A stretch of DNA of 64,000 bases from Saccostrea echinata (taxonomy: Eukaryota), in NCBI RefSeq assembly GCF_033153115.1, contig NW_026889757.1, positions 8,742,001-8,806,000 of the forward strand, in the 5' to 3' direction. How positions within the stretch are numbered: position 1 is the stretch's first letter; each line of letters begins with the position of its first letter. Under the pieces are notes generated by a model, which did no database searches, was not told where the DNA came from, and saw only the letters and a list, made by a program, of their open reading frames with translations. Of the stretch, positions 18,701 to 21,700 are shown one piece after another. Both the position numbers and the translations under genes were made by a program.

Positions 18701-21700
18701 TCTTTCAAAATTGTGAATTTCATGGCCTCTGGTTTAAAACATGAATCCATTGTGGCGAAGTTATTGCATGATACTCAGGTGACCTATAAGGCCCGTGGGC
18801 CTCTTGTTGTAATCGGTAAGCAAATGTCCTGTCTACCTGCAAGCTCTTTCTACTGGCTTAAAAAATTGAAGAAAATGGTAAATTAAGACTTCCTGGTAAT
18901 AAGATTTTGGAACTATATATCTGTAGTTTCATACATTGCTTTTAAGATATTTTGAAAAAGGAAAAAAGATATTTTTATTTAATTTTTTTTTAACCAGCTG
19001 GTATATACTTATGATAGTTATGACCGATCAGTATAACCATTATCATTGTGAATACTTGGCCAAAATTAAAATATTAACTATCAATATAATTTTACACCAT
19101 AATTCTTTTTAACAGATGGAAATATACAATTGGGACCTTGGTTGTGTGGATTCTGTGCAATATTGGTTGTCTTGTTTTAACTAAAGGTAACTAAGAAAAA
19201 TTTTAATATGGATTCAAAACTGTTTTATATCTTAACATGTATGTGCCATTCTTTGAGTGTGAGTGTATGTGAACACTCAGGTTTAAAGATGTCTAATATA
19301 AAGATACACATTGTAGGTATTTCCAAATGATTAAGAAAAAAGAGTTTACACAAATATTATTTCCATTATTAATCCATGTCATTGTAGTATAAAAATGTAC
19401 AGAATCGTAGAAATAAAAGCACAACTGAAATGTCAATCTTCTTGTTTCTACAGGTGCTGTGTTTACTCTGATATCATTGCTGGTAATATGCATTGCAACT
19501 ACATCCTTAGTACAACTACATACCAGAATCCTGGATAAATGTCTTCCCTCTACATCATCTCAAAAAGAGGAAGAGGATGAAGATATAGAAGATGAAGAAG
19601 CAATGAAGACTGTCAAACAGTTCCGTTATAGGTTAGATACATGCTGTCAAACAGTTCCGTTATAGGTTAGATACATGCTGTCAAACAGTTCCGTTATAGG
19701 TTAGATGACTGTCAAACAGTTCCGTTATAGGTTACATACATGCTGTCAAACAGTTCCGTTATAGGTTAGATGACTGTCAAACAGTTCCGTTATAGGTTAG
19801 ATGACTGACAAACAGTTCCGTTATAGGTTAGATACATGCTGTCAAACAGTTCCATTCTAGGTTAGATACATGCTGTCAAACAGTTCCGTTATAGGTTAGA
19901 TGACTGACAAACAGTTCTGTTATAGGTTAGATGACTGTCAAACAGTTCCGTTATAGGTTAGATGACTGTCAAACAGTTCCGTTATAAGTTAGATGACTGT
20001 CAAACAGTTCCGTTGTAGGTTAGATGACTGACAAACAGTTCTGTTATAGGTTAGATACATGCTGTCAAACAGTTCTGTTATAGGTTAGATACATGCTGTC
20101 AAACAGTTCCGTTATAGGTTAGATGACTGTCAAACAGTTCCGTTATAGGTTAGATGACTGTCAAACAGTTTCGTTATAGGTTAGATACATGCTGTCAAAC
20201 AGTTCCGTTAGAAAGACAAGTCTAAAATATTGTTAAGAACTTCATATACAGTTGAACTTCGGTATCTCGAACACTGATACCTTGAATACCATGAATATGT
20301 TGAAGTGATTTTGAAGTTCCAACCCCTTATTTCTTAAGTATTTTATCCTGGATATCTCGAATTCTCGGATATCTTGAAATTTTTTCTCGGTCCCATTGAG
20401 TTCGAGATAAAGAGGTTTGACTGTATATATTATTAAAAATTTTCTTTATTTAAAAAAAAAGGATGGAAATGTCATATCGTTCATCAAAGCAGTTTCAACA
20501 TGATGATCATCATTAATGCTATTCAAATCACTCCAACATATGAATTTCTTTTCAGTTGCAAGCATTCAAAAAAGTAAATCTCTCTTTTAGTATGAGAGAG
20601 TTAATGAAATTTGGTAATTGAAATATGTTGATATTTTTTTGTTTGTAGCCTCCTACAAATGTATGATTTTATTGTACTCTGCAATGAAGGACTAACACAG
20701 TTCTACAGAATCCTCAAATGGGACAACACTCTTGCCTCTCTCAGGTAAATAAAATAAAATAAAATAAAAAAAATTTTATAATGAAAAACTAAATATTTAC
20801 TGATATATATCAATATAGTATGGAACTTGTTCAAAAATTTGCTAGCCCATAATTCAAGTTTTTCTAAATTTAGATGGTATTGAATGAAAAAATTCCTTAT
20901 AAAGTAATCAGCTCATCTGAAAATTCATTAGTCTTAAACTATAACAGGGTTAGTGAAATTTCTTAAGTTAGTATATTGCTACATCTACTTTGGGATTCTG
21001 TTTCCATTGTGGTTGCTAATTTTCACTATATTTTGTAGATTCCATGTGGAGATATGTGTATTCTTGTTAAGTTTGGTTGTCTTGCCAACAAGAGGAATTT
21101 GTTTTATGCTGGTTAATTGGTTTTTCTTGGCCAATGAGGTTGTGTTTTACAGTGAGTATATGTATACAATGTTCACAGAAATATTTCTATACATGTAGTT
21201 TTAAAAATCATTGGTATTGGGTTTTATAGACATATTTAAAAACAATGAGTGTCTGTTCCCTTTACAGAGTTGTTGAAATATGGAGAAAAAGTGTGGGGAG
21301 TTTCCCTGTCTCCAATACCAATCAAAGACAATGGGGCTATCAGGGTTAGTATAAAGCTTAGTGTTAACTGCTCTCTCATTCATTCACTCATTAAAACTAT
21401 ACCAATGTTACAGCTACAGATTTGATCTAGATGGATAATAAATTTTGTTATACTACTTTTAGTTTAACAATATGGCAAATATACAGTGTAATATACTTGT
21501 AGTGAAGAAGGGACTAGAGCTGCAAGTATTTTTTTTTTGGTTAAATCTATTCATCTTTAATAACCTTTTAGTACACTGTTTTGGAAGAAGATCAACAGAA
21601 GTCTAAGGAAGAGGACACAAAAGAACAACCAGAGGTACGTTCTACACTACACAGTTAATCAGAGTGGCCAACTGGTCGATTGTTTTGGTTCCAGTGGGGA

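What the first reader, a model, noticed from the sequence alone, without database searches (positions are those of the whole stretch)
19610..20210. Protrudin exon-4 donor site amplified 18 times as an AG|GT minisatellite
Seen: the array begins in coding sequence, and nearly every unit keeps TATAG|GTTAGA, identical to the real donor with the same 22 nt of exon context. Units are 31 or 34 nt. Reading past the first donor meets TAG at 19663-19665, so every downstream donor yields a truncated, FYVE-less, probably NMD-sensitive transcript. Each junction is AG|GT, so it could serve as acceptor and donor. Established: tandem duplication of AGGT-containing sequence is a proposed route of intron gain, and AG|GT is the recursive-splicing signature. 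Inference: copy number could tune productive splicing, or recursive re-splicing may rescue distal donor use.
Basis: partly seen in the sequence, partly recalled or inferred. Interest (0 to 1): 0.7.

Follow-up and report, generated by a model that had tools for sequence, protein, structure and literature searches.

The report
Splice-donor minisatellite in oyster protrudin intron
In an oyster protrudin gene the end of exon 4 and its splice signal are copied 17 more times into the next intron, but the assembled transcripts examined use only the first signal, so this is likely a harmless example of a repeat type already known from human and amphioxus genes and likely common in this genome.

Summary
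A 31/34-nt minisatellite (19608-20210) starts in coding exon 4 of an oyster protrudin gene and carries 18 donor-like sites: the real one at 19632 plus 17 copies. An in-frame TAG at 19663-65 precedes every copy. Likely-RNA contigs from 3 of 4 runs (2 studies) join exon 4 at the first donor straight to exon 5, and none enters the array. Depth is low, and those animals may lack the array. Recursive splicing and intron gain fail their tests: the array's AGs have poor pyrimidine tracts, the intron is 1,017 nt, and intron sequence, not exon, follows the last copy. This is a known class ('mirage' repeats of amphioxus; human F7, CBS, 6-16, LMNB2, ABCA7). It is also frequent here. The same window holds two more donor arrays, and a survey of 1.70 Mb of distant sequence found 6 (1.9 expected by chance, 0 in reversed decoy), roughly 1,200-7,100 genome-wide. 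The scan noted the same kind before, in this genome and in others. Verdict: ordinary locus. Copy-number tuning through NMD is untested, not excluded.

The parts
19454..19631 (+). Protrudin coding exon 4 (178 nt); its last 22-24 nt form the exonic part of the repeat unit
   Evidence: tblastn of P0001; exon 3-4 joint in X1 and X3, and loose ends at 19631 in X1, X2, X3
19629..19637 (+). Authentic donor TAG|GTTAGA (GT at 19632-33); lowest-scoring of 8 donors of this gene that were scored (5.3 vs 6.3-9.0 bits, approximate recalled matrix)
19608..20210 (+). Boundary-spanning ('mirage') minisatellite: 17 complete units of 31 or 34 nt plus a partial unit; 17 extra donor-like sites
19663..19665 (+). 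In-frame TAG directly before the second donor; included by any distal donor choice
20211..20648 (+). Unique remainder of intron 4 (438 nt), ending in the real T-rich acceptor
20649..20744 (+). Protrudin coding exon 5, joined directly to 19631 in RNA-like contigs
15778..22832 (+). Coding span of the protrudin-like gene (383 aa; FYVE domain in the last exons, about 22250-22800)
45407..46339 (-). Second donor-spanning minisatellite (about 19 x 50 nt, 71% matches, 9 GTAAGT) starting in exon 46419-46298 of another gene
2457..2565 (+). Third, short donor-spanning repeat (2.8 x 39 nt) at a predicted exon (2379-2474) of the upstream phospholipase C-like gene
   Evidence: exon predicted, not checked with RNA

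Best explanation
This is a boundary-spanning ('mirage') minisatellite at the start of protrudin intron 4: assembled transcripts splice at the first donor, so the 17 copies are likely silent passengers removed with the intron. Shown: the anatomy, the in-frame stop, first-donor splicing in contigs, and other arrays of the same kind in this genome. Inferred origin: a 31-34 nt slip duplication across the exon-intron boundary, then expansion and shuffling of variant units by slippage and unequal exchange. Inferred selection of the donor: the spliceosome takes the most upstream donor (oriented scanning / exon definition, as shown for human F7). Any leak to a distal donor would include the TAG and would likely be cleared by NMD, so the array costs little and is tolerated.
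For: RNA-like contigs in 3 of 4 runs laid (X1, X2, X3: three samples, two studies; X4 had no cover) end exon 4 at 19631 and continue in exon 5; depth is zero over 19644-19730 in all four. All 13 aligned oyster proteins, including two annotated isoforms that share P0001's label, read through this junction with no insertion. The second array of the window is also spliced at its first donor in X2, X3 and X5, with no depth beyond it. Human F7 IVS7 has the same anatomy and uses only the most upstream donor, and so do LMNB2 and PDGF (PMC1557585). Amphioxus mirages do not disturb normal splicing (PMC3087553). The class is frequent here: 12 of 158 arrays in 1.964 Mb pass the donor test at score >=20 (11 after dropping one coding repeat) against 0 in reversed decoy. 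Three of the other donor-side exons are confirmed by homology: PLC-epsilon, EFCAB6 and CFAP46. Some of these arrays have a stop before donor 2 and others do not, so there is no shared design.
Against: Contig depth is only 5.7-9.3, contigs drop rare forms, and NMD would hide distal products, so low-level use is not excluded. The runs are only guessed to be RNA, come from other animals (X1 differs at 4 exon positions), and may lack the array. The authentic donor is the weakest of 8 scored in the gene. In human 6-16 and CBS two distal donors are used (as cited in PMC1557585), and in ABCA7 one unit is retained and VNTR length affects splicing (PMC5954066 passages). Arrays sit at donors about 3 times more often than chance (6 vs 1.86, P=0.012; 5 distinct loci, P=0.04), which pure neutrality does not explain without a mutational bias. 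Scanning was shown in mammalian cells, not in molluscs.
Confidence: 0.8

Rival explanations
1. Leaky rheostat: donors 2-3 capture a real share of splicing, more with more copies or under heat stress, and the products go to NMD, so array length tunes protrudin level.
For: The authentic donor is weak and has identical competitors. Both unit lengths are 1 mod 3, so the TAG falls in frame with either type as first unit. There are precedents in 6-16 and CBS (cited in PMC1557585) and ABCA7. Heat activates stop-preceded latent donors in human cells (PMC3510495 abstract).
Against: No contig enters the array in 4 of 4 runs. F7 pseudo-sites do not compete. There is no evidence of length polymorphism or conservation at this locus.
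Confidence: 0.13
2. The array's AG|GT junctions act as recursive splice sites that step through the intron or rescue distal donor use.
For: 16 of 17 copies keep AG|GT. [quoted passage not shown]
Against: Acceptor scores are 3.5-3.9 against 7.0-12.7 for 7 real acceptors; pyrimidine fraction is 0.57; every copy has an extra AG 4-15 nt upstream. The intron is 1,017 nt, whereas ratchet points lie mainly in long introns (PMC8605326 passages). AG|GT is simply the usual donor context copied. An exon already extended to a distal donor contains the stop, so rescue would need a second cut from donor 1, which gives the normal product anyway.
Confidence: 0.02
3. The array is an intron gain in progress by tandem duplication of AGGT (Rogers model).
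For: Ebner et al. propose that mirage repeats can give new intron positions (PMC3087553).
Against: The model needs an AG|GT embedded in coding sequence so that excision restores the peptide (PMC3265369 introduction). Here the last copy is followed by 438 nt of ordinary intron and a separate real acceptor, and a retained 31- or 34-nt unit shifts the frame.
Confidence: 0.02
4. The array is an assembly artefact or its copy number is badly wrong.
For: No DNA run was laid on it.
Against: 10 distinct unit variants occur in irregular order, the contig is 12.9 Mb, the flanks are unique, and many similar arrays exist.
Confidence: 0.03

Closest known systems
Human F7 intron 7 37-bp VNTR (Borensztajn et al. 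2006, PMC1557585; abstract, introduction, first Results sections and Discussion passages read)
   Same: First unit spans the exon-intron boundary, the donor is reiterated identically, and the most upstream donor is used.
   Different: F7 has 5-9 copies with 4 exonic nt per unit. Here there are 18 sites with 22-24 exonic nt and two unit lengths. Polymorphism and scanning are shown for F7 and untested here.
Amphioxus 'mirage' minisatellites (Adh3, BflGb6, BflGb9; PMC3087553 passages of section 16 read; Canestro 2002 not held, known only through that paper)
   Same: Invertebrate tandem repeats spanning exon-intron boundaries, on the donor or the acceptor side, carrying AG/GT signals, with normal splicing kept.
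   Different: Different phylum. Length instability is shown there and not here. No genome-wide frequency appears in the passages read.
Human 6-16, CBS, LMNB2 and PDGF intronic minisatellites (seen only as cited in the introduction of PMC1557585)
   Same: 10-25 reiterated donors behind the real one; size and copy number are very like this array (CBS 15-20 repeats).
   Different: 6-16 and CBS use two distal donors as well; no such use was seen here, at low depth.
Human ABCA7 intron 18 VNTR (PMC5954066, passages read)
   Same: Repeat includes the donor; retention of one unit gives a premature stop.
   Different: The unit starts at the GT, with no exonic part; allele lengths vary widely and affect splicing. 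Not shown here.

Membership tests
Boundary-spanning ('mirage') minisatellite | Head-to-tail repeat with minisatellite-sized unit | tested here: met
   Period 31/34, 18.7 copies
Boundary-spanning ('mirage') minisatellite | First unit spans a genuine exon-intron boundary | tested here: met
   Array starts at 19608-19610 in exon 4; boundary at 19631/19632 by protein and contigs
Boundary-spanning ('mirage') minisatellite | Splice signal reiterated in the intron | tested here: met
   17 extra GT sites, 13 with exact TATAG|GTTAGA
Boundary-spanning ('mirage') minisatellite | Normal splicing kept at the authentic site | tested here: met
   3 of 4 runs join 19631 to exon 5; major form only, and array carriage in those animals is unknown
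Boundary-spanning ('mirage') minisatellite | Length polymorphism or instability (VNTR) | not tested
Recursive splice site | Juxtaposed AG|GT | tested here: met
   16 of 17 copies
Recursive splice site | Strong 3' splice site with polypyrimidine tract before the AG | tested here: not met
   Pyrimidine fraction 0.57 vs 0.71-0.86; extra AG 4-15 nt upstream; score 3.5-3.9 vs 7.0-12.7 (approximate matrix)
Recursive splice site | Typically in long introns | tested here: not met
   Intron 4 is 1,017 nt; PMC8605326 passages
Recursive splice site | Splicing intermediates or lariats at the site | not testable with these tools
   Only contigs were listed
Intron gain by tandem duplication (Rogers/Hellsten) | Duplicated AG|GT lies inside coding sequence, so excision restores the peptide | tested here: not met
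   Intron sequence follows the last copy; the real acceptor is 438 nt further on; definition
Intron gain by tandem duplication (Rogers/Hellsten) | Intron absent in orthologues | not testable with these tools
   G000 has no relatives here; only proteins were available
Latent 5' splice sites (stop-preceded, stress-activated) | In-frame stop upstream of the unused donors | tested here: met
   TAG 19663-65
Latent 5' splice sites (stop-preceded, stress-activated) | Activation under heat or other stress | not testable with these tools
   Run conditions are not on record

The most novel reading that the evidence does not exclude
Oyster genomes generate minisatellites preferentially at splice donors (about 3-fold over chance, 1-4% of detectable exons, thousands of loci). 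These arrays form a large set of copy-number-variable latent donors that leak under heat stress and send transcripts to NMD, giving heritable, length-dependent tuning of genes such as protrudin in an intertidal animal. The frequency is estimated here from a small sample; the leak and the tuning are untested.
Probability: 0.1. Interest if true: 0.6.

Novelty: new member of a known kind. Interest (0 to 1): 0.17.

Why it matters
The locus itself matters little: the class has been described in human genes and amphioxus, and the outcome seen here (first donor used) is the usual one. What has some value is the class in this genome. If thousands of donors carry identical downstream copies, oyster RNA-seq becomes a natural experiment on donor choice outside mammals: scanning, proximity, or stop-dependent suppression. 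Arrays with and without a stop before donor 2 both exist, for example a 42-nt in-frame, stop-free array in the neighbouring PLC gene. The excess of arrays at donors also asks for a mutational explanation.

Tried and rejected
Recursive splicing, intron gain and artefact were rejected as given under rivals.

RNA structure as the means of silencing distal donors: predicted accessibility of donor 1 (0.44 unpaired) lies within the range of the copies (0.24-0.61), so there is no support.

Selection for a stop before donor 2: among the 11 non-coding-repeat arrays at score >=20, 7 have one and 4 do not, so there is no rule.

A strong donor-over-acceptor asymmetry: the automated counts were 6:1 in distant sequence (P=0.125). 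The scan missed an acceptor array found by eye (L025), so the acceptor side is undercounted and I do not claim the asymmetry.

A second, TRF-independent scan gave 7 real vs 0 decoy donor hits at score >=25 in distant sequence (6 without L040). At lower scores decoys also hit (2 at >=22, 8 at >=18), so only high-scoring hits count.

The run search listed no holder on record as RNA; five guessed-RNA runs held 15-18% of the words.

Pfam found nothing for 8 of 8 single-exon peptides, and PDB found nothing for the L101 exon. L093, L100, L101, L105 and the second L148 exon therefore remain predictions.

The protein search with an exon of the second gene returned 8 unnamed proteins, so that gene is unnamed.

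Turri 1995 and Canestro 2002 are not held. A paper search for oyster + minisatellite + tandem repeats + splice sites + intron found 0 papers with all five terms. The mirage search listed 8 papers, none on bivalve boundary repeats by title or abstract start. This is weak evidence of absence from print. No look-alike of this locus was found in the scan's other genomes.

Full report
1. Observation. The array is real: 19608-20210, period 31, 18.7 copies. It holds 18 donor-like sites from 19632 to 20180. The 17 complete units are 34 nt (7) or 31 nt (10) in 10 variants, in irregular order. Of the 17 extra sites, 16 keep AG|GT, 13 keep TATAG|GTTAGA, 9 keep the 22 exonic nt and 8 keep both the 22 nt and GTTAGA. 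A probe covering the exon end and first units matched only this locus in G000 (5 self-matches).

2. Gene. The exon at 19454-19631 is 100% identical to P0001, which its source names protrudin-like of Saccostrea echinata; relatives in three other oyster clusters are 83-86% identical. tblastn places it as the fourth coding exon, with exon 5 at 20649-20744. FYVE is at residues 310-373. Intron 4 is 1,017 nt: array first, then 438 nt of unique sequence and a T-rich acceptor. Reading past donor 1 adds 11 residues and stops at TAG 19663-65, after residue 161, so every distal donor includes the stop. That NMD would follow is inferred from general knowledge.

3. Which donor is used. Six guessed-RNA runs were listed, all as contigs. 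Four were laid on 18780-19730, which covers exons 3-4 and the first three units. X1, X2 and X3 (three samples, two studies) end at 19631 and continue in exon 5; X4 had no cover; no contig entered the array. The bulk of the array was not part of the stretch laid. Limits: depth 5.7-9.3, contigs drop rare forms, NMD hides distal products, and the animals may not carry the array. All 13 aligned proteins cross the junction without insertion.

4. Recursive splicing: the array AGs score 3.5-3.9 as acceptors against 7.0-12.7 for 7 real ones (approximate recalled matrix), have a pyrimidine fraction of 0.57 against 0.71-0.86, and all have another AG 4-15 nt upstream. Ratchet points lie mainly in long introns (PMC8605326 passages). 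Intron gain: the Rogers model needs AG|GT inside coding sequence (PMC3265369 introduction), whereas here an existing boundary was copied and intron follows the last copy. Copy-number tuning is untested. It keeps some weight because donor 1 is the weakest of 8 scored, and because 6-16, CBS (cited) and ABCA7 show distal use.

5. The array is one of many. The same window has a second array (45407-46339, minus strand, about 19 x 50 nt) that starts in an exon. Contigs of X2, X3 and X5 join its first donor to the next exon at 44933, with no depth in the array part laid. A third, short array lies at 2457-2565. The PLC-epsilon-like gene just upstream also carries a 42 nt x 12 donor array (L025:5258-5773) and a 32 nt x 32 acceptor array before its catalytic X-domain exon.

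I then surveyed 190 further 10-kb stretches of G000 plus the window (1.964 Mb, 158 arrays of period 10-130). The test used an ab initio exon score with reversed sequence as decoy. At score >=20, 12 arrays had a predicted exon's donor in their first unit, repeated downstream, against 0 in decoy. I dropped one (L040, a coding Pro/Gly repeat). In the 1.70 Mb away from the window (132 arrays) 6 remain against 1.86 expected from random placement (P=0.012; 5 distinct loci, P=0.04). That is 1.3-7.7 per Mb, roughly 1,200-7,100 in 923 Mb, or 0.6-3.8% of detectable exons. Near the window, 4 besides the index array were found against 0.61 expected; that region was chosen through the finding. Homology confirms the exons at L025, L148 (first array) and L008, and a gephyrin exon with an acceptor array at L135; five of the six distant donor hits remain predictions. 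The exon model is crude: it scored only 10 of 17 approximate test donors in the window at all. A second scan gave similar numbers at high scores but more decoy hits at low scores.

6. Mechanism. Shown: anatomy, stop, first-donor splicing as the major form, recurrence. Inferred: origin by a short slip duplication across the boundary, with later shuffling of variants (the same variants recur at separate places in the array). [quoted passage not shown] Why arrays seem to favour donors is unexplained.

7. Known kind. PMC1557585 lists F7, 6-16, CBS, LMNB2 and PDGF; PMC3087553 calls the amphioxus cases 'mirages'. I found F7 in my own search. The term 'mirage' came from earlier scan notes and I checked it in the paper. 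The scan holds 46 notes with these words in at least 24 genomes, and two listed for this genome describe the same kind of repeat; these are unchecked notes, not support. No supplements were read; those of the F7 and globin papers are unlikely to change the reading.

8. Verdict. Real, correctly described, a new member of a known kind, and probably silent. Interest 0.17. The one lead worth a further look is the apparent excess of minisatellites at splice donors in this genome.

Noticed in passing
window 45407-46339 (-): Second donor-spanning minisatellite (about 19 x 50 nt, decayed distally) in an unnamed gene; first donor used in contigs of X2, X3 and X5.
   Followed up: yes
L025:5258-5773 (+), G000 C8, just upstream of the window: 42 nt x 12 donor array in a PLC-epsilon-like gene. 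Units are in frame and stop-free across 10 repeated strong donors, so distal use would add 14 aa per unit and escape NMD; a cleaner test case than protrudin.
   Followed up: partly
L025:8316-9456 (+): 32 nt x 32 acceptor-side array (28 copies of the AG|GT core) upstream of the PLC X-domain exon at 9457-9564. With window 2457-2565, this gene has three boundary arrays.
   Followed up: partly
window 2851 to about 3169-3175 (+): Likely U12-type AT-AC intron in the PLC-like gene: ATATCCTTT at the 5' end, TCCTTAAC branch motif and AC acceptor (consensus recalled).
   Followed up: no
L101:4240-4799 (-): Near twin of the finding on another contig: 31 nt x 18 array with a donor in each unit after a predicted exon (no homologue found).
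   Followed up: partly
L148:6012-6978 and 9001-10000 (+): Two 71-nt donor arrays in one 10-kb stretch; the first follows an EFCAB6-like EF-hand exon.
   Followed up: partly
L135:3058-3268 (+): 46 nt x 4.6 acceptor-side array at a gephyrin/MoeA exon.
   Followed up: partly
window 6828-7396, 17287-18732, 25276-26286, 63125-63425: Arrays of 146-178 nt units, of the satellite-like kind common in oysters (recalled; not tested), one inside protrudin intron 2.
   Followed up: no
window 47140-47620 and 48014-48462: Two related 80-84 nt AT-rich arrays with internal palindromes, in opposite orientation, probably a non-autonomous mobile element.
   Followed up: no
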